A stretch of 54,684 nucleotides of DNA, from IMG/VR virus record IMGVR_UViG_3300010399_000045, positions 1-54,684 of that record; one strand, given 5' to 3'. A program made the translations under genes and the position numbers. This DNA comes from a virus (taxonomy: Duplodnaviria > Caudoviricetes). The notes under the pieces are model-generated. The model ran no database searches and had not been told where the DNA came from. It was given only the letters and a program-made list of their open reading frames with translations. Shown one piece after another: positions 1 to 53,581 of the stretch (its first letter is position 1; each line of letters begins with the position of its first letter).

Positions 1-23
1 AACAGGTCCAGCGTGGCGTTGAC

Positions 24-218
24 GTGAAAGAAAAGACCCAGTTCGAGGTGTCGGCCGCCTGGATGAAGTCCTGCGGACTCGGCAGCGAGGCGAAGGTGTT
101 CCCAGTGCTGCGTACGCAGCACTACCCGAAGGCGGCGGACTGGTGTGCGGTGATGGTGATCGTGGAGCGCGACGGCCGCGAGTGGACGGTCGCGCAAGGA
201 CGCGGCAAGTTTATCTGA
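24..218 (+). CDS. Small hypothetical early protein (may start upstream of the window)
   Basis: ORF whose TGA abuts HH1. Confidence 0.6.
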   Translation: MKEKTQFEVSAAWMKSCGLGSEAKVFPVLRTQHYPKAADWCAVMVIVERDGREWTVAQGRGKFI

Positions 219-285
219 GTCGAAACCGGGCCAGGGTGCCCGGTCGCGCAGCACCCGGCCCGCTGCGCCTGATGATGACAGGCCG
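219..285 (+). ncRNA. Type II hammerhead ribozyme HH1 (predicted cleavage after C245)
   Basis: GTC-GAAA-[ccgggc/gcccgg]-TC-[gcgcagc/gctgcgc]-CTGATGA-T-GAC; loop I cggcc pairs with tail ggccg. Confidence 0.92.
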
Positions 286-300
286 ACAGGAGCAGCTGAT

Positions 301-438
301 ATGCTGCGCTTTTTGATTGTCGAGCTGTGCAAGGCGATCCTGACCGTCGTGGTTGCTGCCACCCTGGTCATGTCGTTCGGCGCGTGGCTCGTCGGAGATG
401 AACAGGAGAGACCATATGCCGCGCATGACCGACGCTGA
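301..438 (+). CDS. Small hydrophobic (single TM) hypothetical protein, 45 aa
   Basis: AGGAG RBS after HH1, ATG 301, MLRFLIVELCKAILTVVVAATLVMSFGAWLVG. Confidence 0.55.
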   Translation: MLRFLIVELCKAILTVVVAATLVMSFGAWLVGDEQERPYAAHDRR

Positions 439-626
439 CAAGCAGCGCGCGAAGTCCGAGATGGCGTGCATGTGCCTGACCGCGGTGCGCGACTACCTTG
501 GTTCAACCCGAGGTGCCCATCTCATGGGACCGGGGGCCAAGGCGGAACTCGGCGATCCACAAGACGATCATCGTCACCACCGCCGGTGGCACCTTCAAGG
601 TGGCGGTCAGCGAGTACCCCAACTGA
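416..626 (+). pseudogene. Small early gene with an apparent frameshift near 540-555
   Basis: AGGAG RBS and ATG 416; the +1 frame reads AIHKTIIVTTAGGTFKVAVSEYPN and stops at 624-626, just before HH2 like the other cassettes. Confidence 0.4.
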
Positions 627-630
627 AAGA

Positions 631-699
631 GCCGAAACGCCGCAGGGTGCGGCGTCGGTAGGGAGATGGGCCGACCCTGCCCTGATGATGGCAGGCCCA
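631..699 (+). ncRNA. Type II hammerhead ribozyme HH2 (cleavage after C656)
   Basis: GCC-GAAA-[cgccgca/tgcggcg]-TC-[ggtaggg/ccctgcc]-CTGATGA-T-GGC; loop tgggcc pairs with tail ggccca. Confidence 0.92.
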
Positions 700-715
700 A
701 ACCCGGAGAGAAAAA

Positions 716-916
716 ATGAAGGTCACGATCGATCCGATCGACGTCGACTCGATCACCGTCGAGATCAGTGGTGTGCCACTTCGCCTGTCGATCGACGTGA
801 ACGATTGCCTTCGCATCGAGTCCCAGAAGGACTACCTTGGGGCCGCGGTGCTGGCCAGCAACACGGTCCTGGTGTCGTACCTGTCGCCCCCTCCGAAGAA
901 AAAGGTGCGCAAATGA
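716..916 (+). CDS. Hypothetical protein
   Basis: GGAGAG RBS after HH2. Confidence 0.7.
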   Translation: MKVTIDPIDVDSITVEISGVPLRLSIDVNDCLRIESQKDYLGAAVLASNTVLVSYLSPPPKKKVRK

Positions 917-1362
917 TCACAAAACATCAGGTCAAGGCACTCGAGCGCGAGTTCCCGGAGGGCATCCCCGCATGGATGCTGACGGGCGGCCACAGCGCCG
1001 ACCAGATCCGCGAGCTCATGACGCTGCGGCGTGCCGGCCCCGCCAGATCGGCGGAAGGGCAGGCCCCGGAGCACAACTTCAGTGTCGAACCCGAGCAGTG
1101 GGACGACGCTGTCGTGATGAACGCCGCCTACTTTCAGATCGTCATCGGGCGAAACCCGGTGACGCGCGAGCGGATGCAGTGCAAGGATCTGCCCGAAGCT
1201 GTCAACCTCGCGCGGGTGCTGCTGCACACGGTCGCCGGCCAGAGGCCGATGATCTACGCTGTCACCGCGACCGGCCGCAGCACCATGCTGGTGCCGCAGC
1301 GCTGGGAGCACTACCTCAAACTTTGGGAGAAGCATCATGGGACTGCAAAAGTTTCGGGCTGA
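913..1362 (+). CDS. Hypothetical protein
   Basis: ATGA overlap with previous gene; start MITKHQVK. Confidence 0.7.
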   Translation: MITKHQVKALEREFPEGIPAWMLTGGHSADQIRELMTLRRAGPARSAEGQAPEHNFSVEPEQWDDAVVMNAAYFQIVIGRNPVTRERMQCKDLPEAVNLARVLLHTVAGQRPMIYAVTATGRSTMLVPQRWEHYLKLWEKHHGTAKVSG

Positions 1363-1615
1363 CAAGTTCGACAAGCAGTCGGACGGTGCCGAGATAGGCG
1401 TCTCCGAGTGGCTAGGCGGCCCGACGGTCTCGCTGGTCCGCAACTGCCGCCTCGCCAACCTGGAGGGTAACATGCGTCGCACGGTCTACGCGACAGGCGA
1501 TCCCGACACGTTCTTCTCCATCCCCGCGGTGACCGTGATCGCAGGGTGCCATGTCAACGGGCACCTGACGCTCGACGAGGATTGCCTGACGGTGTTTCGT
1601 CAGTGCTACTACTGA
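1337..1615 (+). CDS. Hypothetical protein
   Basis: GGAG RBS; stop immediately before HH3. Confidence 0.7.
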   Translation: MGLQKFRADKFDKQSDGAEIGVSEWLGGPTVSLVRNCRLANLEGNMRRTVYATGDPDTFFSIPAVTVIAGCHVNGHLTLDEDCLTVFRQCYY

Positions 1616-1617
1616 TC

Positions 1618-1682
1618 GCCGAAACGCCGCGGGTAGCGGCGTCGTGCCGACCTGGTCCACGGCACCTGATGATGGCAGACCA
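1618..1682 (+). ncRNA. Type II hammerhead ribozyme HH3 (cleavage after C1643)
   Basis: GCC-GAAA-[cgccgc/gcggcg]-TC-[gtgccg/cggcac]-CTGATGA-T-GGC; loop tggtc pairs with tail gacca. Confidence 0.92.
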
Positions 1683-1701
1683 AAGATTCAGGAGCAGCCC
1701 A

Positions 1702-1908
1702 ATGGGCAAGCGATACAAGATGCTGAACGGAGAAAAGATGCCGGAGTTTCGCGCGCGCTGCCAGCGGCTCGAGGAGGAGCGGCGGGCGCCACCGCCTCCG
1801 CCGAAGCCCAAGCGGGTGCGCAAGTCCCGTGCCAAGCCGAAGCCCACGCCGATCGCCGACAAGGTCGACGGTTTCGACCGCGACAACCTCGGGTTGTCCC
1901 CCGACTGA
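1702..1908 (+). CDS. Small basic Pro-rich hypothetical protein
   Basis: AGGAG RBS after HH3; stop before HH4. Confidence 0.7.
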   Translation: MGKRYKMLNGEKMPEFRARCQRLEEERRAPPPPPKPKRVRKSRAKPKPTPIADKVDGFDRDNLGLSPD

Positions 1909-1910
1909 TT

Positions 1911-1977
1911 GCCGAAACCCGGACCAGATGTCCGGGTCCGCGCGGCGGTGGTTCCCCGCGCGCTGAAGAGGCAAACC
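1911..1977 (+). ncRNA. Type II hammerhead ribozyme HH4, canonical core without the extra U (cleavage after C1938)
   Basis: GCC-GAAA-[cccggac/gtccggg]-TC-[cgcgcgg/ccgcgcg]-CTGAAGA-GGC; loop ggtt pairs with tail aacc. Confidence 0.93.
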
Positions 1978-1994
1978 CCCGGAGAGATCAAAAG

Positions 1995-2423
1995 ATGATC
2001 AAACATGATGACCACCCGTTCAAGCCGGGCGTGAAGGTCGCGGTGATCAGCGCCTACGGCACCAAGCGCACCTTCCGCGAGGACGAGGTCGCCAAGGTTC
2101 ACAAGACCGGGCGCTTCTCTCTGCAGCAGACGGGTGCGCAGTGGCGCGTGGAGCACGGCACGATCACATACGGCGGGCCGCGTGTCTGGTACGCCGAGCA
2201 ACCGGCCCAGTCTGGTCGCCGCTTCCGCGACCGGGTGCGAGTCCTCGACGAGTCATTCCTCGCCGAGATCGAGGTGGAGAAGGCTGAGGAGGCGCGGCGT
2301 ACGCGCGTGATCGAGGCGGTTCGGACAGCTGAGAAGTTTCTGGGTGGGCGATCGCAGGATCGCCTGACCGACTGGCAGCTCGAGGCACTCGAGACCTTCA
2401 ACAACCTGTGCAAGGAGCACTGA
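1995..2423 (+). CDS. Hypothetical protein
   Basis: GGAGAG RBS after HH4; start MIKHDDHPFKPG. Confidence 0.7.
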   Translation: MIKHDDHPFKPGVKVAVISAYGTKRTFREDEVAKVHKTGRFSLQQTGAQWRVEHGTITYGGPRVWYAEQPAQSGRRFRDRVRVLDESFLAEIEVEKAEEARRTRVIEAVRTAEKFLGGRSQDRLTDWQLEALETFNNLCKEH

Positions 2424-2428
2424 TACAC

Positions 2429-2686
2429 ATGAGCGAGATTATCACCCGAATTGTGGAGCTTGGAAACGCCATGAAAGTTGCCCGGGAACGAAGCGAACTC
2501 GACCGCCTCTACGAGAAGGCGCGTGCCTACGGCGAGATGGTTGTCGACTATGAAGACGACGCCGACCCGGACACGATCTACGACGCGTGGATCCGGGCAG
2601 CGCGCAAGGCGCTCGAGCATGAGCCCGACCGTGCGCTCGCCGAGCAGGCTGCTTCCAAGGTCGCGCAGGCGTTCGCGCAGCCCTGA
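2429..2686 (+). CDS. Hypothetical protein
   Basis: AGGAG RBS; stop before HH5. Confidence 0.65.
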   Translation: MSEIITRIVELGNAMKVARERSELDRLYEKARAYGEMVVDYEDDADPDTIYDAWIRAARKALEHEPDRALAEQAASKVAQAFAQP

Positions 2687-2693
2687 AAGAATC

Positions 2694-2758
2694 GCCGAAA
2701 CCGGGCACCTAGCCCGGTCGTGCGGGGGTGAGCTCCCCGCGCCTGATGATGGCAGCTC
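2694..2758 (+). ncRNA. Type II hammerhead ribozyme HH5 (cleavage after C2719)
   Basis: GCC-GAAA-[ccgggc/gcccgg]-TC-[gtgcgggg/ccccgcgc]-CTGATGA-T-GGC; loop gagct pairs with tail agctc. Confidence 0.92.
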
Positions 2759-2776
2759 TACCTACGGAGAGAACAG

Positions 2777-3766
2777 ATGACCGCAGCTGTAGAGACGATG
2801 GCCTGGACCGGTCAGACACCGTGGCACGGCGAGGGGTTCAAGGTCGACAACAACCTGACGCCCGAGCAGATGGTCGCCGCGGCGAAGATCAACTGGACCG
2901 TGTCCAAGCGCAAGGCCTTCTTCGAGCACGACGGTCAGATGGTACCGGCAAAGGATGAATACGCGCTGGTGCGCGACAGCGACGGCTTCAAGCTGTCGAT
3001 GGTCGGTGCCGGCTACAAACCCGTCCAGAACGCCGACGCCATGGACTTCTTCAAGCGCTTCGTCGACGCCGGTCACATGACGATGGAGACGGCCGGCGCC
3101 CTGTGGAATGGCCGCTACGTGTGGGGCCTCGCGCGGGTCGGCAAGGACTTCAAGCTGGGTAACAAGGACGAGGTGCGCGCGTATCTGCTCCTGTCGTCGC
3201 CGCACGTGCACGGCCGGTCGTTGAATATCCAGTTCACGACCGTGCGTGTCGTGTGCTGGAACACCCTCACGATGGCGCTCGGCGCCAAGCTGGACGGTGG
3301 CAAGGGCAAGGGGTTCCGTGTGCCACACTCGATCGCCTGGAACGATAAGGTGAAGGAGCAGGCGCAGGAGGCCTTCGGGCTCGCCGCGGAGCAGATGGTC
3401 CAATTCAAGGAGGCGGCGACAGTCCTCGTCAAGAAGAAGGCCGCGACGGCCGAGGTCGAGGAGTACTTCTGCGAGGTGATGCGGTACGATCCGAAGGAGA
3501 ACACCCGCAAGAAGAAGGCGGACGGGTCGGAGCGCGAGCCGAGGTCCCTGCCGAAGTTCCGCGCGGCGCTCGAGCACAGCCCCGGCCAGCAGCTGGCGCC
3601 GGCGCTCGGCACCTGGTGGGGCGCCCTGAACGCCGTCACCTTCGTGATCGATCACGAGATCGGTCGCGACCGCACGACGGCCCTGCGCAACGCCTGGATG
3701 GGTCACACCGCAGGCATCAAGCGGCGGGCCCTCGACCTGGCCCTGCAGAAGGCCGTGAAGTCCTGA
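2777..3766 (+). CDS. DUF932-family phage/plasmid protein
   Basis: ETMAW...PWHG, ETAGAL.NGR.VW, VRVVCWNTL and GTWWGALNAVT motifs typical of the family. Confidence 0.85.
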   Translation: MTAAVETMAWTGQTPWHGEGFKVDNNLTPEQMVAAAKINWTVSKRKAFFEHDGQMVPAKDEYALVRDSDGFKLSMVGAGYKPVQNADAMDFFKRFVDAGHMTMETAGALWNGRYVWGLARVGKDFKLGNKDEVRAYLLLSSPHVHGRSLNIQFTTVRVVCWNTLTMALGAKLDGGKGKGFRVPHSIAWNDKVKEQAQEAFGLAAEQMVQFKEAATVLVKKKAATAEVEEYFCEVMRYDPKENTRKKKADGSEREPRSLPKFRAALEHSPGQQLAPALGTWWGALNAVTFVIDHEIGRDRTTALRNAWMGHTAGIKRRALDLALQKAVKS

Positions 3767-3769
3767 ATT

Positions 3770-3842
3770 GCCGAAACCTGCGGGGCCCGACAGCCCCCAG
3801 GTCGTGCCGATCTGGTCCACGGCACCTGATGATGGCAGACCA
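3770..3842 (+). ncRNA. Type II hammerhead ribozyme HH6 (cleavage after C3803)
   Basis: GCC-GAAA-[cctg-c-ggggc/gcccc-cagg]-TC-[gtgccg/cggcac]-CTGATGA-T-GGC; loop tggtc pairs with tail gacca. Confidence 0.92.
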
Positions 3843-3867
3843 AAAAAGTGGAGAGGAAAAGCAGGTC

Positions 3868-4179
3868 ATGGCTGAGATCCACATCACCCTGAACGAGGAT
3901 TCGTACTACAAGTGCCTGACTGACGTCGGTCTTCTAGATCTGATGGCCGTTGCGCACGTCGACCGCGTTGGTGACAACTATCACGTGCGTTTGACCCACA
4001 AGGATCTGGAACAGCTCCTGAAAGGTGAAAAGATCAGCCCAGACGAGTACGCGCACGAATTAGCCTGCCAGCTTGTTCGTCAAAGCCGGCCCAAGAAGAC
4101 GAAAAGTTACCTACTTAGTGCGGCCGTTGTCGTGTGGGCCACGGCGAGCGTACTCCTATTGTTCTTGGCGTATCAATAA
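3868..4179 (+). CDS. Hypothetical protein with C-terminal TM segment
   Basis: ORF between HH6 and HH7; hydrophobic C-terminus. Confidence 0.6.
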   Translation: MAEIHITLNEDSYYKCLTDVGLLDLMAVAHVDRVGDNYHVRLTHKDLEQLLKGEKISPDEYAHELACQLVRQSRPKKTKSYLLSAAVVVWATASVLLLFLAYQ

Positions 4180-4182
4180 ATG

Positions 4183-4255
4183 GCCGAAACCCAGGTCTTC
4201 CAGTGTACCTGGGTCGTCGCGGGCTGGGTACCCGCGGCCTGATGATGGCAACCCA
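4183..4255 (+). ncRNA. Type II hammerhead ribozyme HH7 (cleavage after C4215)
   Basis: GCC-GAAA-[cccaggt/acctggg]-TC-[gtcgcggg/cccgcggc]-CTGATGA-T-GGC; loop tgggt pairs with tail accca. Confidence 0.92.
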
Positions 4256-4271
4256 AACCCGGAGAGAAACG

Positions 4272-5177
4272 ATGTTAAAGAGCTACGAGCAGCGCGCGCA
4301 GGAGTACCTGGGTCGCGACCTCGCGGGCCTCACCGCGTACCTGCAGGGCTGCAGGGTCGACATGCACGAGCCCGACGAGCAGGGTGTCAAGGCAAGTGTA
4401 GTCGGCAGTCACCTGGACAACTCGTTCGGCAATACCGGCACCAACGACGAGCTGGTTGTGCTCCTCGACCGCGACGGCAAGCCACAGGAACGTTTTAACC
4501 TGGCTACACTGATCGCGCTGGCACGGCTCGCCGACCTCGGGTCCTTGATCCCGCGCGAGTATCAGCTGACGCCCCTGCAGATCACGATGCTCCTGCACTA
4601 CCACGCGATCGTTACACCCTACGGCCGCGGCGAGCCGGAGCACGCCAACTCGCCGGCCGTGCGGCAGCAGCGGGAAGCGATGGTGACGATGGGCCTGCTG
4701 TACGCGACCGACGAGTTCCCGTCAGGCTACAGGACGACCGAGGCCGGGCGCCGGCACGTCGAGCGCCTGACGCAGATGAGCCCGGGGCGCGCGTCTGACA
4801 GCACCCCGCTCGACGAGCTGTTCGATGAGCGTGAGCGGCAGCAGAACAACATGATCTTCGCTGCCGCGAATATCAGGGCGCACGCGGAGGCGTTCCGTGA
4901 GGTGACCGACCGCATCGTGAACATCCTCATGACCGGCGGCGGTGGGCACGACGAGGTCATCGACGAGACGGAGGTCATGAACACCGACACCTACGTCGAC
5001 CATGTGCTCATGACCGAGGCGGCTGGCAAGATCGACGAGAAACGCCGGCGTGTCTCCAAGCTCGAGCAGTTGCTGTGTCAGATCGTCGACGCCTACTTTG
5101 GGAAACAGCCTATTCGCGATGCCATCGCTGAGGCACGTGAACTCGTCAAGGACGTGCCACGGGAGGTCAGGTCGTGA
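4272..5177 (+). CDS. Hypothetical, probably multidomain, early protein
   Basis: GGAGAG RBS after HH7; 301 aa ORF. Confidence 0.7.
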   Translation: MLKSYEQRAQEYLGRDLAGLTAYLQGCRVDMHEPDEQGVKASVVGSHLDNSFGNTGTNDELVVLLDRDGKPQERFNLATLIALARLADLGSLIPREYQLTPLQITMLLHYHAIVTPYGRGEPEHANSPAVRQQREAMVTMGLLYATDEFPSGYRTTEAGRRHVERLTQMSPGRASDSTPLDELFDERERQQNNMIFAAANIRAHAEAFREVTDRIVNILMTGGGGHDEVIDETEVMNTDTYVDHVLMTEAAGKIDEKRRRVSKLEQLLCQIVDAYFGKQPIRDAIAEARELVKDVPREVRS

Positions 5178-5373
5178 AGGACGACCTGGTCTGCATCAGG
5201 CCCAGCGCTGGAGGAAACCTCACCTGGGCCAGCAGGGCTGCGTGCATACGCAGCCTGCGCGAGTTCAGCCCGGCCCCGCGGGCTGCGCACCGTGTCGTCC
5301 GGTTCTGGTCGACCCGGTATGGTAAATGGCGGTATTGTCGAGTCCTAGACCCGACTCGGTGCCGCAAACAGAA

Positions 5374-5440
5374 GTCGAAACCGGGCACCTAGCCCGGTCG
5401 TGCGGGGGTGAGCTCCCCGCGCCTGATGATGGCAGCTCAC
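5374..5440 (+). ncRNA. Type II hammerhead ribozyme HH8 (cleavage after C5399)
   Basis: Near-identical to HH5; GTC/GGC stem II; loop gtgagct complementary to tail agctcac. Confidence 0.92.
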
Positions 5441-5464
5441 AGAACATGGAACCCGGAGAGAACC

Positions 5465-6256
5465 ATGCAGGATAACAACAAGATCATCGACAAGATCCGC
5501 AAGGTGCTGGCCCTCACGTCCTCGCCGAACGAGGGTGAGGCGGCGAGCGCGGCAGCACGCGTGCAGGAGATGCTCGCCAAGTACAACCTTCAGCTCGGCG
5601 ACGTCATCGAGAAGAAGGCGGACGAGGCGATCCAGATCTACAAGGGCATGCGCACGCCTTCCCGGCCCTGGTGCCGGCAGATCGCGGTAGCGACCGCCAG
5701 TCTGTACTTCTGCCGCTACTACTACACGTTCGTCAAGGAGGGTGCCGCGCGCAAGTGCGGCTACATCCGCTACGACGAGCACTATTTCGTCGGCCGTCCG
5801 CACAACGCGGCGGTCGCCATGATGATGTTTGAGTACCTGACCAAGACTGTCGAGCGGTTGGCGGTCGCGGGCAGCAAGTCGGTGCCGGCCACCGAGCGGA
5901 CCTCCTACATGACCTCGTTCCGCACAGCCTGCGCCCTGCGCCTGAACGCCCGCATCTACGCCCGGCTCACCGAGACCATCAAGTCGGCGACCCGCAGCAC
6001 CGAGGTCAATGGTAGCGGCGGTGCCCCCAGCAGCAACCTCCCCGCGCTCGCCAGCCTGTACCAGCAGGCGAAGCAGGAACTGCAGGAGTTCATGGATGAG
6101 AACTTCAGCAAGAACAGTATCAAAGAGAAGGTGACCAAGGTCGTCTACAACCACAGCAAAGGTACCCAGGACGGCGACAAGGCCGGTTCCTCGATCGGCC
6201 TCGACCAACAGGTCGGTGCGGGTGGCAAGCCCTCCGCACTGATCGGGAGGACCTGA
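5465..6256 (+). CDS. DUF2786-domain protein
   Basis: KIIDKIRKVLALTSSPNEGEAASAAARVQEMLAKYNL signature. Confidence 0.85.
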   Translation: MQDNNKIIDKIRKVLALTSSPNEGEAASAAARVQEMLAKYNLQLGDVIEKKADEAIQIYKGMRTPSRPWCRQIAVATASLYFCRYYYTFVKEGAARKCGYIRYDEHYFVGRPHNAAVAMMMFEYLTKTVERLAVAGSKSVPATERTSYMTSFRTACALRLNARIYARLTETIKSATRSTEVNGSGGAPSSNLPALASLYQQAKQELQEFMDENFSKNSIKEKVTKVVYNHSKGTQDGDKAGSSIGLDQQVGAGGKPSALIGRT

Positions 6257-6258
6257 TC

Positions 6259-6462
6259 ATGGCTCGAATGATCGTCAGCGAGCGCGAGCGCCTGCTTCAC
6301 GGCGCCGTCCACGACCTCAGCAGCGCATTGCAGCACGTGCTGCGCGCGATCGACCTGTCGCAGGCGAACGGCGACGCGAGTGTCACCGTTCGCCAACCCC
6401 TGATCGAGGCACTCGCGTGCATCGACACAAGCCGCATCGAACTGGAAGGATTCATCGGATAA
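6259..6462 (+). CDS. Hypothetical protein
   Basis: GGAGG RBS; stop before HH9. Confidence 0.65.
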   Translation: MARMIVSERERLLHGAVHDLSSALQHVLRAIDLSQANGDASVTVRQPLIEALACIDTSRIELEGFIG

Positions 6463-6463
6463 A

Positions 6464-6531
6464 GCCGAAACGGCGCGCGTCGTCGCGCCGTCGTGCCGAT
6501 CTGGTCCACGGCACCTGATGATGGCAAACCA
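6464..6531 (+). ncRNA. Type II hammerhead ribozyme HH9 (cleavage after C6492)
   Basis: GCC-GAAA-[cggcgcg/cgcgccg]-TC-[gtgccg/cggcac]-CTGATGA-T-GGC; loop tggt pairs with tail acca. Confidence 0.92.
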
Positions 6532-6549
6532 AACCCGGAGAGAAACCAC

Positions 6550-7011
6550 ATGACCAAAGGTCGCAAGGTCAACCCGAGATATGCAAGCAAGAAGCGGACA
6601 CCCCGCCCGACGAGGGAAGAGTTGAGCCGGCGTCTGCAGGATCTCAGTACAGAACTGCGCATCGTGGAATCTGTGCGCGCCAGTGCCGAGGAGCGTGCAG
6701 GCCGATACTGGGAGGAGATCACGAAGCTGAAGCAGTACCTGGAGGAGGCCCAGGCAGGATCACGACATGCCTATGAGCAGCGCGACGATACGATACGCGA
6801 GCGCAACGAGGCCGAGGCTCGCATGTGGCGCCAGGCAGGAGCGCTGCAGCTGATCTGGGCCGAGTTCGCGCCGTACAACATGCTCGGCGCTGACCCCAAT
6901 CGCCTGAAGAACTCGCTGCGCGTGATCCACGGCATCGCCGAGCAGGCACTCGGCAGACAGAGCCTGGGTTGCGGCCTTTTCGAGGCCGCGCAACTGCGGA
7001 AGACCAACTAG
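6550..7011 (+). CDS. Coiled-coil hypothetical protein
   Basis: GGAGAG RBS after HH9; TAG overlaps the first base of HH10. Confidence 0.7.
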   Translation: MTKGRKVNPRYASKKRTPRPTREELSRRLQDLSTELRIVESVRASAEERAGRYWEEITKLKQYLEEAQAGSRHAYEQRDDTIRERNEAEARMWRQAGALQLIWAEFAPYNMLGADPNRLKNSLRVIHGIAEQALGRQSLGCGLFEAAQLRKTN

Positions 7012-7077
7012 CCGAAACCGGGCGCCCTTCGCCCGGTCGCGCGGACCTGACCCGCCGCGCCTGATGATGGCAGGTCG
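7011..7077 (+). ncRNA. Type II hammerhead ribozyme HH10 (cleavage after C7038)
   Basis: GCC-GAAA-[ccgggcg/cgcccgg]-TC-[gcgcgg/ccgcgc]-CTGATGA-T-GGC; loop gacc pairs with tail ggtc. Confidence 0.92.
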
Positions 7078-7103
7078 AAACAAAATTCCCCGGAGAGAAA
7101 GAT

Positions 7104-7289
7104 ATGATCACCGAAAACAAGCTGAAACGCGTACCGCGCATCTACCGCTGGATTGAGGGCTACGCCACTCTCATGGTCGGTGGTGGTGGTGTCATGATGC
7201 TGCTCCAGCAGCCCCTTTGGGCGATCGCCTTCTTCACTGGCGCGATCGCTCTAAAGCTGGACCTGCGCGACACAAGGGAGGGTTACTGA
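7104..7289 (+). CDS. Small membrane protein
   Basis: RBS after HH10; two hydrophobic stretches. Confidence 0.65.
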   Translation: MITENKLKRVPRIYRWIEGYATLMVGGGGVMMLLQQPLWAIAFFTGAIALKLDLRDTREGY

Positions 7290-7519
7290 TGGTACGGGAA
7301 AAGGAGGTCGTAAATCTCGAGTGCCTCGACCGCGACGACCTGTCGGATTACATCCGCAAGCACCAGGACGATCCGGCCTACAGCTACCAGGTGTCGATCG
7401 CGCAAACCATCCGTGAGGCCCAGGCGGCGCAGTTGACAGGGCAGATCTCCCGCGCCCTCACCCTCGAGAAGCATGCGGACGCGCTCTACAAGCTCCTGCC
7501 GCAGGAGGAGCGCTGGTGA
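7289..7519 (+). CDS. Hypothetical protein
   Basis: TGATG coupling, GGAGG RBS; stop before HH11. Confidence 0.65.
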   Translation: MVREKEVVNLECLDRDDLSDYIRKHQDDPAYSYQVSIAQTIREAQAAQLTGQISRALTLEKHADALYKLLPQEERW

Positions 7520-7522
7520 GAA

Positions 7523-7590
7523 GTCGAAACGGCGCGATGACGCGCCGTCGTGCAGCACCCGGCCCCGCTGCGCCTGATGATGACAGGGCC
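7523..7590 (+). ncRNA. Type II hammerhead ribozyme HH11 (cleavage after C7549)
   Basis: GTC-GAAA-[cggcgcg/cgcgccg]-TC-[gtgcagc/gctgcgc]-CTGATGA-T-GAC; loop ggccc pairs with tail gggcc. Confidence 0.92.
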
Positions 7591-7604
7591 CCCGGAGAGA
7601 GAAG

Positions 7605-7964
7605 ATGAAGAAGGCATCAGTTGACCCACGCGAAGCGCGCCTGCCGGTTTGGGCACGCGACGAGCTCGACACGCTACGCCGCAAGGTCACGGATCTGCAG
7701 AAGGCGCTCACAACTATCACCGAGTGCAACAAACCGGCCCAGTTCTGGGTCGACCTCGGGCCATCGAGCAACACCCCCGGTCGCTTCTACCTGCAACAGC
7801 CGCGGATGCACTTCGGCGTGGACCCGATGGACGACGGTTTCGGTACCCAGCACCTGCAGCTGATCCATCGCGAGGAAGGTGGTCAGCACTACCTCGAGAT
7901 CAACGGCAAGCAGGCCCTGTACGTGCGTCCGTATGCTAGCAACGTCCTGCGGATCATGGTGTGA
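7605..7964 (+). CDS. Hypothetical protein
   Basis: GGAGAG RBS after HH11. Confidence 0.7.
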   Translation: MKKASVDPREARLPVWARDELDTLRRKVTDLQKALTTITECNKPAQFWVDLGPSSNTPGRFYLQQPRMHFGVDPMDDGFGTQHLQLIHREEGGQHYLEINGKQALYVRPYASNVLRIMV

Positions 7965-8320
7965 GCACCATGACCAAGTTCAAGCAGGGCAAGGAAGCTG
8001 CGGACCGGGTGCGCCAGCACCACGCGGACGAAGAGCAGTACGAACTGCCCGAACCCGACGTGACCCCCGCTACCCACCCCGACCATCACACGGTCGGCAA
8101 GGAGTTCATGGGTCACGACTACCGGCGACACGGGTGGCCCGCGGTGCGCTGGTTCTGCGAGTCACATGACCGATGCGGCTACTGGATGTACGCGACCGAC
8201 GGGTCCGGTCATTGGACCAATGTGTCGGAGCGCGCAATCGGCCGCAGCTTCCACGAGATCGAGCGCTTGCCGTCCGGTCGCCTGATCTGTGCGGGCTGGC
8301 GGGTTCCAACTTATACTTGA
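7961..8320 (+). CDS. Hypothetical protein
   Basis: GTGA overlap with previous gene. Confidence 0.6.
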   Translation: MSTMTKFKQGKEAADRVRQHHADEEQYELPEPDVTPATHPDHHTVGKEFMGHDYRRHGWPAVRWFCESHDRCGYWMYATDGSGHWTNVSERAIGRSFHEIERLPSGRLICAGWRVPTYT

Positions 8321-8331
8321 AAGGAGGAGAC

Positions 8332-9171
8332 ATGCGTGCGCAGCGAAGGACCGCCGAACCTCGATGGGGTGTCGTCGGAGCTGCGATTACGTTGGCTGCC
8401 GCTGCCGGTTACTTCAGTGTAACCGGCATGGCAGCACTCTATGCGGGGTCGGCGATCGGGGTCAGCGTAATCTTTGCGGCGATCGAGATCGGTAAATTGG
8501 CAACCGCCGCTTCCCTGCATCGCTACTGGCCCGGTCTGTCGTGGGTCGTTCGGATCGGACTGATGGTGGCCCTGCTGGCCGCCATGCTCCTGACCTCGGC
8601 TGGTGTGTACGGCTACCTTCTGCGGGCCTACCTGTCGCGCGCACCAGCACTCACCTCAGCGCAGCAGGTGGTAGCCTCACAAGAACGCCTGATCGTCGAC
8701 CTGGAAGCGCGCCTGCGTGCGGCGCCTGCCAAGATCAACCTGCCTTCTCGCATCTCGTCCCGCGCGATGACGATCGCTGCACAGGCGCAGGCAGCAGAAC
8801 AAAAGAGACAGGCGACAGATAGAATGCGCCTGACGACCGAGTACCAAGCTGCTCTACAACGGCTGGCGGAATTGCGCACAACAGCGGCCGAGGTGGAGGT
8901 GGAACTTGGACCCGCAAGAACACTCGCCACGTGGCTCAACCTGGGGCAGTCCGGTGCTGTAGAGGTGCTGACCTTGATCTCGGTGTTGTGCCTCGATCCG
9001 CTAGCCGTCCTGCTGATGATGGCCGGCAGTGGGCGCGCACAAAACCTTCCTATCAGGCGGGTCAAGAAGAAACGAAAAAGTCTCAAGAAGAAGGTGCGTA
9101 AAAGCTTACCGCGAGTAACACCAACCTACACAACACCAGTAGCGCGTTTAACAAGCAGCAAGAAGGGGTAA
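8332..9171 (+). CDS. Membrane protein (3 TM + coiled coil + TM, basic tail)
   Basis: AGGAGG RBS; hydrophobic helices; DPLAVLLMMA. Confidence 0.7.
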   Translation: MRAQRRTAEPRWGVVGAAITLAAAAGYFSVTGMAALYAGSAIGVSVIFAAIEIGKLATAASLHRYWPGLSWVVRIGLMVALLAAMLLTSAGVYGYLLRAYLSRAPALTSAQQVVASQERLIVDLEARLRAAPAKINLPSRISSRAMTIAAQAQAAEQKRQATDRMRLTTEYQAALQRLAELRTTAAEVEVELGPARTLATWLNLGQSGAVEVLTLISVLCLDPLAVLLMMAGSGRAQNLPIRRVKKKRKSLKKKVRKSLPRVTPTYTTPVARLTSSKKG

Positions 9172-15920: not shown

Positions 15921-17030
15921 ATGGTGACAAAGAAGACAAAGTTTGCCGTCGATTTGATGATGGACTCGGGCATCTTCAGCGCTTGGAACCGGGGTAAGAG
16001 CCTGAACTTGCTCGACTACATCAAATACGTCAAGGACAACAAGCACCTGCTGTGGACCTACGTCAACATGGACGAGATCCCCGGCAAGTTCGGGCAGAAG
16101 CGCACCCAGCGCGACGTCGACGAGTCTGCCGAGATCAGCTACTACAACCTGCAGACCATGAAGTCGCACGGCCTGCACCCGATCCCGGTCTTCCACCAAG
16201 GGGAGCGCTTCACCTGGCTGGAGCAGCTTCTGAAAGACGGCGAGGACTACATCGGTATCTCGTCGGCGAAGGACCTCAACCGACCCGCGCAGCAGGCCTG
16301 GCTGGACCAGGTGTTCTCGATCCTGTGCGACGGGCGCGGGCGGCCCATCATCAAAACCCACGGCTTTGGCATCTCGCGGGTCGCCTTCCTGCTGCGCTAT
16401 CCCTGGTGGTCGTCCGACTCGACGACCTGGTCGCTGACCCCGGGCTACGGTTCGATCCTGGTCCCACCCTGGGACGGCCGCAAGTTTGACTACAGCCGGT
16501 CTGCCTTCCGGTGCGTCACCTCAGGCGTGCAGCAGACAGGTGCGACCCTGCAGAAGCGCCAGTTCGAGGCCCTGGGTCCGCAGCAGCAGGCCGTCGTTCT
16601 GCGCTACCTCGCCGAGATCGGGGTGACTCTCGTCGAAGCGCGCTACAGCACCCAGCAGCGCCGGCGATGCGTCCTGCACTACTATCTGCAGCTGCAGAAG
16701 CATCTGGATGGTGTCAACTTCCGAGGTCACGGCAAGGCGAAGTCAGAGGGCATGGCTCCCTTCCGCACCAACATCGTCTACGCGACGATGCTCGACAAGG
16801 CGTGGGGCCAGCTGATGAACGAGCTCGGGGCGCGCACCCGCCTCCTGTCCTATTGGGAGATGCGCGACCAGCCCAGCGAGGTGCTCGCCCGGTATGTCGA
16901 GACAGGCACCCACGGTCCGTGGGTGCCGCGGGCACCGAAGCAATCATGGAAGTCAGAGGCCTACCGGAACTACCGCCGAGCGGCCCTGCACAGGAGAGGT
17001 TTGCAGGATGGAGAGGAAATTACTGCTTGA
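15921..17030 (+). CDS. TGT-fold DNA deazaguanine transglycosylase (DpdA-like)
   Basis: DSGIFSAW, NMDEIPG, PIPVFH, HGFG, SSDSTTW motifs; located next to queC/folE. Confidence 0.75.
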   Translation: MVTKKTKFAVDLMMDSGIFSAWNRGKSLNLLDYIKYVKDNKHLLWTYVNMDEIPGKFGQKRTQRDVDESAEISYYNLQTMKSHGLHPIPVFHQGERFTWLEQLLKDGEDYIGISSAKDLNRPAQQAWLDQVFSILCDGRGRPIIKTHGFGISRVAFLLRYPWWSSDSTTWSLTPGYGSILVPPWDGRKFDYSRSAFRCVTSGVQQTGATLQKRQFEALGPQQQAVVLRYLAEIGVTLVEARYSTQQRRRCVLHYYLQLQKHLDGVNFRGHGKAKSEGMAPFRTNIVYATMLDKAWGQLMNELGARTRLLSYWEMRDQPSEVLARYVETGTHGPWVPRAPKQSWKSEAYRNYRRAALHRRGLQDGEEITA

Positions 17031-52963: not shown

Positions 52964-53581
52964 TCAGGTCGCCGCGGTCGCCGCGGAGCTCTGGTTGCCG
53001 GTCGGGGCTGTCGGCTGCACGTTGCCGCCCTGCAGAGGGTCGGCACCTGATGGGGAGGCCGAGTCACGCACGGTCGTCGCGCCCTGCACGCGCACCTCCT
53101 GCACCATCACGTCGACGACGATCATGCCGACACCGTTGGTCGTGGTGCGCCTATAGTCGTAGCGCACCATGTTGGCGTTGACGTAGACGACCTCGGGCGT
53201 GACGATGTTGTAGAGGTCAAGGGTCGGCAGGGCTGCGGCGACCGACAGCAATAGCGCCTCGCGCGCCGCCTGGGTGCCGCCTGCGACGAACTGCACACGC
53301 GCCTCGTACGGCCTGTCGACCTTGTCATACGACTGGAACGAGCCCCGCTCCAGCGGAAAGTCGGCAACCACCTCCTCGCCCTTGTAGTCGAATGCCGTCA
53401 CCGTGTCGGCCGTGATGACAGCGCGACCGCCGAGGTAGAGTCCCCACTGCGGGCGCAGGCCGGCGCCGAAGCCGACGGTCTCGTCCCGATCCATCAGGTC
53501 GGGCGGTGCCGGGGCGGCGACCCCCGGCTCGCGGATCAGCGGCGGGACGCCCGGTGCGATGGGAACGACTGGGAAAGGCAT
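52964..53581 (-). CDS. Tail tube initiator/baseplate-associated protein
   Basis: FPLERGSFQSYDKV..P, IVTPE; position after tape measure. Confidence 0.65.
   Translation of the reverse strand: MPFPVVPIAPGVPPLIREPGVAAPAPPDLMDRDETVGFGAGLRPQWGLYLGGRAVITADTVTAFDYKGEEVVADFPLERGSFQSYDKVDRPYEARVQFVAGGTQAAREALLLSVAAALPTLDLYNIVTPEVVYVNANMVRYDYRRTTTNGVGMIVVDVMVQEVRVQGATTVRDSASPSGADPLQGGNVQPTAPTGNQSSAATAAT

What the first reader, a model, noticed from the sequence alone, without database searches (positions are those of the whole stretch)
253..7590. Covarying loop I / 3'-tail pseudoknot in all 11 copies
Seen: loop I is complementary to the sequence just 3' of stem II in every copy, with different sequences: cggcc/ggccg, tgggcc/ggccca, tggtc/gacca (two copies), ggtt/aacc, gagct/agctc, tgggt/accca, gtgagct/agctcac, tggt/acca, gacc/ggtc, ggccc/gggcc. 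Known: tertiary contacts between the stem I and stem II regions let natural hammerheads cleave fast at physiological Mg2+. Inference: selection acts on RNA structure, so these are functional ribozymes rather than DNA repeats, and the pseudoknot compensates for a stem II of only about 3 bp.
Basis: partly seen in the sequence, partly recalled or inferred. Interest (0 to 1): 0.8.

Follow-up and report, generated by a model that had tools for sequence, protein, structure and literature searches.

The report
Known pseudoknot in eleven phage hammerheads
Eleven self-cutting hammerhead RNAs sit between the early genes of an uncultured soil phage, and each carries the loop-to-tail pseudoknot that was described and tested for this ribozyme type in 2011, so the feature is real but ordinary.

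Summary
Window 219-7590 (+ strand) contains 11 complete type II hammerhead ribozymes. Own loop/tail helices average 5.0 bp against 2.2 bp for 100 cross-class pairings. The 11 copies collapse to 7 sequence classes; one representative of each gives a summed helix length of 36. No derangement (0 of 1854, maximum 24) and no tail shuffle (0 of 5000) reaches that.

Perreault et al. 2011 (PMC3088659) described this same pseudoknot for type II hammerheads. They showed by disruptive and compensatory mutants at 0.5 mM Mg2+ that it is needed for fast cleavage, and they reported clustered hammerheads flanking prophage genes.

Rfam RF02276 scores 7 of 11 copies above its threshold. Other viral contigs carry similar arrays, for example 9 hits in 6.1 kb, and this scan has noted such arrays before on other DNA. 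Cleavage itself was not tested; no RNA data were available.

The parts
219..285 (+). HH1, type II hammerhead: stem II 219-221/277-279 (GUC/GAC), stem III 225-244, cleavage after C245, stem I 246-268, loop I 253-261, core 269-275, pseudoknot 256-260 CGGCC with 281-285 GGCCG
   Evidence: own model 79 bits; not reported by Rfam at E<=1
631..699 (+). HH2: cleavage after C656, loop I 664-674, pseudoknot 667-672 UGGGCC with 694-699 GGCCCA (6 bp)
   Evidence: (47.2 bits)
1618..1682 (+). HH3: cleavage after C1643, loop I 1650-1659, pseudoknot 1653-1657 UGGUC with 1678-1682 GACCA
   Evidence: (47.3 bits)
1911..1977 (+). HH4: cleavage after C1938, core CUGAAGA, the only copy without the extra U after A9; pseudoknot 1950-1953 GGUU with 1974-1977 AACC (4 bp)
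   Evidence: (41.9 bits)
2694..2758 (+). HH5: cleavage after C2719, pseudoknot 2730-2734 GAGCU with 2754-2758 AGCUC (starts directly after stem II)
   Evidence: (48.8 bits)
3770..3842 (+). HH6: cleavage after C3803, long stem III 3776-3802, pseudoknot 3813-3817 UGGUC with 3838-3842 GACCA
   Evidence: (35.0 bits, under the 37-bit threshold); orthologue in L152
4183..4255 (+). HH7: cleavage after C4215, pseudoknot 4225-4229 UGGGU with 4251-4255 ACCCA
   Evidence: (45.1 bits); orthologue in L152
5374..5440 (+). HH8: cleavage after C5399, near-copy of HH5 with stem II GUC/GGC (G.U); pseudoknot 5408-5414 GUGAGCU with 5434-5440 AGCUCAC (7 bp, uses the closing G.U of stem I)
   Evidence: (48.2 bits)
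6464..6531 (+). HH9: cleavage after C6492, same stem I as HH3 and HH6; the tail carries A where they have G, leaving an uncompensated A.C and a 4-bp pseudoknot 6502-6505 UGGU with 6528-6531 ACCA
   Evidence: (41.9 bits)
7011..7077 (+). HH10: cleavage after C7038, pseudoknot 7048-7052 UGACC with 7073-7077 GGUCG (4 Watson-Crick pairs plus G.U)
   Evidence: (34.4 bits, under threshold)
7523..7590 (+). HH11: cleavage after C7549, stem II GUC/GAC, pseudoknot 7561-7565 GGCCC with 7586-7590 GGGCC
   Evidence: own model 73.3 bits; not reported by Rfam at E<=1

Best explanation
These are 11 self-cleaving type II hammerhead ribozymes in the long early transcript of an uncultured soil phage. Each sits between the end of one small gene and the ribosome-binding site of the next. 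In each, loop I pairs through 4-7 Watson-Crick pairs with the bases that follow the 3-bp stem II, usually after a single A. This pseudoknot extends stem II and holds stems I and II side by side, so that the conserved core folds and cuts after C17 at cellular Mg2+ (inferred from published mutational work on other members). Cutting would leave an upstream RNA that ends in the stem III hairpin with a 2',3'-cyclic phosphate. The downstream RNA would start with a 5'-OH, the stem I hairpin and the pseudoknot, followed 3-14 nt later by GGAG and 14-26 nt later by ATG. Only the short stem II would hold the two products together, so they should separate. Shown here: the sequence anatomy, the covariation and the regular placement. 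Inferred: the cleavage itself, and the role of dividing the operon into single-gene or few-gene messages with structured ends.
For: The core (C3 U4 G5 A6 N7 G8 A9, G12 A13 A14, A15.1-U16.1, C17) is complete in 11 of 11. Rfam RF02276 scores 7 of 11 above its gathering score and 2 more at 35.0 and 34.4 bits. For stems I-III, 91.4% of 187 cells pair, 9 of 17 pairs change on both sides, and the covariation score is 0.433 against 0.130 in shuffles (0 of 500 reach it) and 0.056-0.076 when slid. The pseudoknot is present in 11 of 11, with the controls. Relatives: in L152 (93% identical over 641 aligned bases) the HH6 orthologue has a compensated U-A to C-G change in stem III and a loop change that adds a sixth pseudoknot pair; the HH7 orthologue keeps 4 pairs. 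L126 and L127 (DUF932 62% identical) carry a hammerhead in the same place with a different 7-bp pseudoknot, UGAUCCU/AGGAUCA. Among 132 distinct type II hammerheads from other viral contigs, 80% have an own pseudoknot of at least 4 bp, against 17% for cross pairings. Every copy is followed by GGAG and ATG at regular distances, and 10 of 11 are preceded by a stop codon within about 8 nt. Literature: the same pseudoknot, its mutational proof and the clustered prophage hammerheads with observed processing are in PMC3088659. The review PMC6155905 states that type II tertiary contacts are usually Watson-Crick pairs. Three type II hammerheads cleave in vivo in Desulfovibrio vulgaris (PMC8782182).
Against: No cleavage or RNA data exist for this phage. 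Rfam does not report HH1 and HH11 at E<=1, and two more copies are under its threshold. Only 7 independent pseudoknot classes exist, and some cross pairings are as good as the own ones (HH1/HH11 5 bp each way; HH4 loop with HH9 tail 5 bp; 11 of 100 cross-class pairs reach 4-5 bp). HH9 has an uncompensated mismatch, and HH4 and HH9 have only 4 pairs. In the published construct, shortening the helix from 6 to 4 pairs cost about 20-fold in rate. Ten of 11 copies carry an extra U after A9 whose effect on this type I did not find tested. Nested-only folds of the 3' products do not always keep stem I, and only 1 of 11 has a z-score below -2. ORFs 353-661 and 5174-5392 run into HH2 and HH8, so those two gene boundaries are unclear.
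Confidence: 0.88

Rival explanations
1. The loop/tail complementarity is inherited, not selected. The copies arose by duplication of a few founder units, loop and tail lie only about 25 nt apart, and so they simply travel together.
For: The 11 copies fall into 7 classes. Within a class, loop and tail are the same or nearly so (HH3/6/9, HH5/8, HH1/11). Stem modules are shared between copies in mosaic fashion.
Against: Between classes the helices differ at 4 of 5 positions by changes on both sides (16 cells, against a shuffle mean of 4.05; 0 of 2000 shuffles reach it). Seven class representatives still beat all 1854 derangements. Unrelated viral hammerheads show 45 distinct helices with the same geometry.
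Confidence: 0.03
2. The tail pairs with loop I as an alternative hairpin that competes with stem I. It would be a switch that turns the ribozyme off or hides the leader, not a pseudoknot that coexists with stem I.
For: The nested-only minimum-energy folds of the 3' products of HH2 and HH7 use the loop/tail helix in place of stem I.
Against: That program cannot draw pseudoknots, so the result is expected either way. Stem I covaries (5 of 7 pairs change on both sides), so it forms. Loop lengths leave 0-3 unpaired bases 3' of the helix and 0-2 linker bases (1 in 8 of 11), a regular H-type geometry. In-line probing and mutants in PMC3088659 support coexistence.
Confidence: 0.05
3. The units act mainly at the DNA level, as recombination sites that shuffle gene cassettes; the RNA fold is incidental.
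For: Contigs of related phages join 6460 to 1635 (HH9 to HH3). Others skip 1889-2411, so they lack HH4 and the gene behind it. In L152 the HH7 orthologue carries an HH6-like stem III.
Against: A DNA site would not need all 13 core bases, the A15.1-U16.1 pair and C17 intact in 11 of 11, nor compensated stems and pseudoknot. Recombination between repeated ribozymes is a likely side effect, not an alternative.
Confidence: 0.03

Closest known systems
Type II hammerhead ribozyme with loop I / 3'-tail pseudoknot (Rfam RF02276 Hammerhead_II; Perreault et al. 2011, PMC3088659)
   Same: Same topology (stems I and III closed, stem II open), same core, same short stem II. [quoted passage not shown]
   Different: Ten of 11 copies have an extra U between A9 and G10.1 and a 3-bp stem II, which cmscan aligns as a 2-nt insertion relative to the Rfam consensus. 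Four of 11 fall under the Rfam threshold.
Clustered hammerheads flanking genes in prophages (Perreault et al. 2011, section read; triple arrangement around ardA in Agrobacterium tumefaciens)
   Same: Several ribozymes in one transcription unit, each flanking single genes or short gene blocks of varied and mostly unknown function. Processing into gene-length RNAs was proposed and observed in vitro and in E. coli.
   Different: Here there are 11 in 7.4 kb at the cut end of a phage contig that encodes its own primase, polymerase and tail. The text I read names triple arrangements. Larger arrays exist in public contigs (9 Rfam hits in 6,146 bp; 7 in another contig).
Pseudoknot-containing hammerhead solved by crystallography (Zhan et al. 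2024, PMC11300833)
   Same: A Watson-Crick pseudoknot replaces loop-loop contacts as the tertiary brace and gives fast cleavage.
   Different: Different wiring. There the pseudoknot takes the place of helix II and is made with an extra stem-loop (helix IV) joined to helix I, giving a pistol-like fold. Here stem II is kept and loop I pairs with its 3' extension. The 2017 review says no structure of a type II hammerhead was then available.
Loop-loop tertiary contacts of type I and III hammerheads (viroid, satellite and Schistosoma ribozymes; review PMC6155905)
   Same: Same job: dock stems I and II so that the ribozyme works at low Mg2+.
   Different: Those contacts are non-canonical pairs between loops; here it is a plain helix that covaries.
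Synthetic ribozyme insulators placed before a ribosome-binding site (RiboJ; recalled, no call)
   Same: A self-cleaving hammerhead directly upstream of the ribosome-binding site gives every gene a defined, structured 5' end.
   Different: Engineered, derived from a satellite-RNA ribozyme, single units. The comparison is by function only and rests on recall.

Membership tests
Hammerhead ribozyme, type II (RF02276) | Conserved core C3 U4 G5 A6 N7 G8 A9, G12 A13 A14, A15.1-U16.1 pair, non-G at position 17 | tested here: met
   11 of 11. Position 17 is C in all. N7 is U in 10 and A in 1. An extra U follows A9 in 10 of 11.
Hammerhead ribozyme, type II (RF02276) | Three stems around the core, with stems I and III closed by loops and stem II open (5' and 3' ends leave through stem II) | tested here: met
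   11 of 11 parse this way. Stem II is 3 bp, stem III has 5-8 contiguous pairs from its base, stem I 6-9 bp.
Hammerhead ribozyme, type II (RF02276) | Stems supported by covariation | tested here: met
   91.4% of cells paired, 9 of 17 pairs with changes on both sides, 0 of 500 shuffles reach the covariation score. The alignment was fitted to the model, which leans towards the structure.
Hammerhead ribozyme, type II (RF02276) | Score at or above Rfam's gathering threshold (37 bits) | tested here: inconclusive
   7 of 11 above it (41.9-48.8 bits), 2 of 11 at 35.0 and 34.4 bits, 2 of 11 not reported at E<=1. The misses have GUC/GAC stem II, or a long stem III, or a divergent loop I.
Hammerhead ribozyme, type II (RF02276) | Pseudoknot of 4 or more pairs between loop I and the bases just 3' of stem II (a majority feature, not obligatory; Perreault et al. 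2011) | tested here: met
   11 of 11, 4-7 bp, starting 0-2 nt after stem II.
Hammerhead ribozyme, type II (RF02276) | Site-specific self-cleavage after position 17 that gives 2',3'-cyclic phosphate and 5'-OH ends | not testable with these tools
Clustered phage/prophage hammerheads that flank genes | Several hammerheads on one strand of one gene block, in the gaps between genes | tested here: met
   11 on the + strand in 7.4 kb. Ten of 11 have a stop codon within about 8 nt upstream, and all are followed by GGAG and ATG. No excess of promoter- or terminator-like sites in 1-9000.

The most novel reading that the evidence does not exclude
Pseudoknot strength (4 bp in HH4 and HH9, 5-6 bp in seven copies, 7 bp in HH8), together with the extra U after A9, sets a different cleavage rate at each junction. 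The array would then act as a graded processing programme that fixes the relative amounts and lifetimes of the early messages, rather than as 11 equal cutters. The ribozyme-plus-ribosome-site unit would double as a portable boundary at which related phages swap gene cassettes.
Probability: 0.12. Interest if true: 0.5.

Novelty: new member of a known kind. Interest (0 to 1): 0.15.

Why it matters
It matters little as a discovery. The pseudoknot, its function and the clustering of hammerheads in phage operons were published in 2011, and the family is in Rfam. The value is as a clean natural example. One transcript carries 11 ribozymes with 7 different pseudoknot helices of one geometry. That makes a ready-made set for comparing pseudoknot length and sequence with cleavage rate, and for asking what ribozyme punctuation does for phage early gene expression, a question the 2017 review still lists as open. 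It also shows that Rfam's model misses or under-scores 4 of 11 genuine copies of this subtype.

Tried and rejected
RNA evidence: the look-up of sequencing runs listed no RNA holder for window 1-8000. Only DNA runs from soil and rhizosphere metagenomes were listed, so expression and cleavage ends could not be examined.

Laying contigs of four DNA runs: this showed relatives at roughly 85-99% likeness and some joints, but the printed tables were cut and gave no variant inside a pseudoknot.

Formal pair counting of the pseudoknot with the count of structure pairs: not possible. MAFFT (A1, A4) and the model-fitted alignment (A3) put the loop I bases of different copies in different columns. I therefore computed the same measures in a script on an alignment anchored at the tail.

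Orthogonality idea: neighbouring ribozymes never share a pseudoknot class (order A B C D E C F E C G A), which might avoid misfolding. Rejected as evidence, because a random order gives this with probability 0.35.

Idea that the 3' products keep the ribosome site free: the nested folds are mixed and their z-scores unremarkable, so I draw nothing from them.

Closest cultured phage: megablast of 1-8000 against 50,697 phage records found nothing. The DNA polymerase is at most 33.7% identical to any record, so host and taxon remain unknown.

DUF932 relatives: the three in viral contigs (L123-L125) and most of the 27 in metagenome contigs (24 of 27) have no hammerhead by my descriptor.

Array size: I did not establish how large such arrays get. 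Paper searches showed no paper on arrays of this size, but the figures and supplements of PMC3088659 were not seen and may show larger clusters.
Full report
What the window is. The window is one whole IMG/VR virus record of 54,684 bases, linear, estimated about 54% complete, with 63% G+C. PHROG matches show a tailed phage with its own primase, family A DNA polymerase, UvsX-like recombinase, SbcC-like nuclease, a queuine tRNA-ribosyltransferase-like protein, a baseplate wedge and tail fibres. No phage record resembles its first 8 kb at the DNA level. Its polymerase is at most 33.7% identical to any of 50,697 phage records. The only public runs that hold the stretch are DNA runs labelled soil or rhizosphere metagenome.

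The observation. A regular-expression scan and a stricter descriptor run on both strands each find exactly 11 type II hammerheads. All are on the + strand between 219 and 7590, and there are none in the other 47 kb. The descriptor requires GAA, an A...U-closed stem III hairpin, a non-G position 17, a stem I hairpin, CUGANGA, an optional extra base, and a stem II that pairs back. A covariance model built from the 11 and run over the whole window with filters off recovers the 11 at 45.5-81.4 bits. It adds only one 16-bit hit at 53384-53432 (E 0.032), which I regard as spurious. Rfam's Hammerhead_II model (RF02276) scores 7 of the 11 above its 37-bit threshold and 2 more at 35.0 and 34.4 bits. 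It does not report HH1 and HH11 at E<=1.

Anatomy of each copy. The order is: three bases of stem II, G12 A13 A14, stem III closed by A15.1-U16.1, C17 (the cleavage site), stem I of 6-9 bp with a loop of 5-11 nt, then C3 U4 G5 A6 N7 G8 A9. An extra U follows in 10 of 11 copies. Then come the three bases that close stem II, usually one A, and the tail.

The pseudoknot. In 11 of 11 copies the tail can pair with loop I by a contiguous Watson-Crick helix of 4-7 bp that begins 0-2 nt after stem II.

Is it more than chance? I compared each loop with every tail using the same search rule. Own pairs give 4-7 bp, mean 5.0. The 100 pairs between different sequence classes give a mean of 2.2 bp: 4 at 0, 13 at 1, 55 at 2, 17 at 3, 9 at 4 and 2 at 5. 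The 11 copies are not independent. By loop and tail they fall into 7 classes: {HH1,HH11}, {HH2}, {HH3,HH6,HH9}, {HH4}, {HH5,HH8}, {HH7}, {HH10}. With one representative per class the summed helix length is 36. None of the 1854 derangements of tails reaches it (mean 16.3, maximum 24), and none of 5000 shuffles of the tail bases does (mean 17.6, maximum 28).

Pseudo-tails taken from the 9 nt before stem II, or from 10 nt further downstream, give 1-4 bp. In an alignment anchored at the tail, 52 of 55 cells at tail positions 1-5 are standard pairs (94.5%). This falls to 22-49% when the partner is slid by 1-3 bases and to 69% on average in column shuffles (0 of 2000 reach the observed value). Sixteen cells differ from the commonest pair on both sides, against a shuffle mean of 4.05 (0 of 2000). 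Two coarser measures were not significant: the number of positions with any double change (4 of 5) and the number of further pair types (8) were reached by 391 and 875 of 2000 shuffles.

Points against independence. The HH1 and HH11 loops fit each other's tails equally well. The HH4 loop fits the HH9 tail (5 bp) better than its own (4 bp). HH9 carries an uncompensated A.C. The register was chosen to maximise pairing, though the controls used the same rule.

The rest of the fold also covaries. On the model-fitted alignment A3, 91.4% of 187 cells in the 17 modelled pairs of stems I-III are standard pairs. Nine pairs change on both sides. The covariation score is 0.433, against 0.130 in shuffles (0 of 500 reach it) and 0.056-0.076 for slid partners. 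Stem II itself covaries: GCC/GGC in 8 copies, GUC/GAC in 2, GUC/GGC in 1.

Relatives. A metagenome contig 93% identical over 641 aligned bases (L152) carries the orthologues of HH6 and HH7. In HH6 a U-A pair of stem III has become C-G. N7 has changed from U to C. A loop change lets the linker A pair, so the pseudoknot grows from 5 to 6 bp. In HH7 a 5-nt deletion behind the tail leaves 4 pairs, two single-sided changes in stem I keep pairing (G.U and U-A), and stem III is replaced by an HH6-like one.

Two contigs whose DUF932 protein is 62% identical to that of the window (L126, L127) have a type II hammerhead in the same place, just before that gene. Its pseudoknot is a different 7-bp helix, UGAUCCU/AGGAUCA.

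Its loci together with L123-L125 (116 in all) yielded 132 distinct type II hammerheads by my descriptor. Of these, 80% have an own pseudoknot of at least 4 bp, against 17% for random cross pairings, and they show 45 distinct helices. That sample is biased towards the extra-U subtype by the pattern used.

Placement. Every copy is followed by GGAG 3-14 nt after the pseudoknot and by ATG 14-26 nt after it; cleavage site to start codon is 55-65 nt. Seven of the 11 share the string CCCGGAGAGA. Ten of 11 are preceded by a stop codon within about 8 nt, and in HH1 and HH10 the stop codon touches or overlaps stem II. Promoter-like and terminator-like sites in 1-9000 are no more frequent than in shuffles (1 against 1.0; 7 against 6.0). 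This fits one long transcript but does not prove it.

The genes between the ribozymes are small and mostly without family. The exceptions are DUF932 (2777-3763) and DUF2786 plus DUF7168 (5465-6253); just behind the array lies DUF7239 (7605-7961). The contig starts inside a gene 218 bases before HH1, so the array may continue upstream.

What is known. Perreault et al. 2011 (PMC3088659; I read section 6 in full and passages, but not figures or supplements) reported the first natural type II hammerheads. [quoted passage not shown] They noted stem II commonly as short as two pairs. [quoted passage not shown]

The same paper reports multiple hammerheads flanking single genes or short gene blocks in prophages. 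It proposes that long phage transcripts are processed into operon- or gene-length mRNAs, and it shows cleavage for three such arrangements in vitro and for one in E. coli. A 2017 review says that type II tertiary contacts are usually Watson-Crick pairs, that no structure of a type II hammerhead was then available, and that the role of prokaryotic hammerheads is an open question (PMC6155905, passages). Three type II hammerheads were shown to cleave in Desulfovibrio vulgaris (PMC8782182, passages). A 2024 crystal structure of a pseudoknot hammerhead concerns another wiring, in which the pseudoknot replaces helix II (PMC11300833, passages).

Array size. Other viral records carry comparable arrays. 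One has 9 Rfam hits in a 6,146-base contig, one has 7 in a 77-kb contig (my descriptor finds 7 within 3.4 kb there), and others have 6 and 4. Their pseudoknots also differ from copy to copy. Among the 116 loci scanned, only 2 held seven or more. Earlier notes of this scan report such arrays on other DNA, including a nine-copy array and a statement that some phages carry up to about 25. I did not check that last number.

Mechanism, and how sure. I am confident (about 0.9) that these are genuine type II hammerheads whose pseudoknot serves as the stem I/stem II brace. The sequence evidence is complete, and the function of this exact element has been shown on relatives. I consider it probable, though only inferred, that all 11 cleave in the infected cell and divide the early transcript into messages with a stem III hairpin at the 3' end and a stem I/pseudoknot cap at the 5' end. 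Whether those ends protect the RNAs, and whether the weaker pseudoknots of HH4 and HH9 make those junctions slower, is speculation.

Verdict. The copies are new members of a known family in a new phage. Interest is low.

Noticed in passing
window 276, 689, 1673, 2750, 3833, 4246, 5430, 6522, 7068, 7581: Ten of 11 copies have an extra U between A9 and G10.1; HH4 alone lacks it. In other viral contigs 105 of 132 type II hammerheads had it, but the search pattern demanded it for the seed hit. The passages of Perreault 2011 that I read discuss insertions after A6, within GAAA and near C3, not this one.
   Followed up: partly
window 219-7590; relatives laid: Stem III and stem I types are combined in mosaic fashion: HH1, HH5, HH8 and HH10 share a stem III type, HH2 and HH3 another, HH9 and HH11 a third, and each is combined with different stems I. 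Contigs of related phages join 6460 to 1635 (HH9 to HH3). Others skip 1889-2411, so they lack HH4 and the gene behind it. This suggests gain, loss and exchange of gene cassettes at the ribozymes.
   Followed up: partly
L152 559-626: In a 93%-identical relative, the HH7 orthologue has its stem III replaced by one like that of HH6, while stem I and the core stay.
   Followed up: partly
window 353-661 and 5174-5392: Two + strand ORFs run into HH2 and HH8 instead of stopping before them. A shorter frame (498-626) ends just before HH2. No clean gene fills 5174-5373, where HH8 also lacks an adjacent upstream stop codon.
   Followed up: no
L126 123-188 and L127 263-328: DUF932 genes 62% identical to the window's are also directly preceded by a type II hammerhead, so the link between ribozyme and gene is older than this phage lineage. 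L126 has U and L127 has C at position 17.
   Followed up: partly
viral record G002 (holds L041), 6,146 bases: Nine Rfam Hammerhead_II hits in one 6.1-kb contig, two of them only a few bases apart (5049-5111 and 5115-5185).
   Followed up: no
window 15921-17027: The protein matches phage queuine tRNA-ribosyltransferase families (phrog_887, E 4.3e-41). This may point to 7-deazaguanine modification of the phage DNA.
   Followed up: no
window 53384-53432: Weak 12th hit of my own hammerhead model (16 bits, E 0.032, 49 nt for a 77-position model). It is not found by the descriptor or by Rfam and is probably chance.
   Followed up: partly
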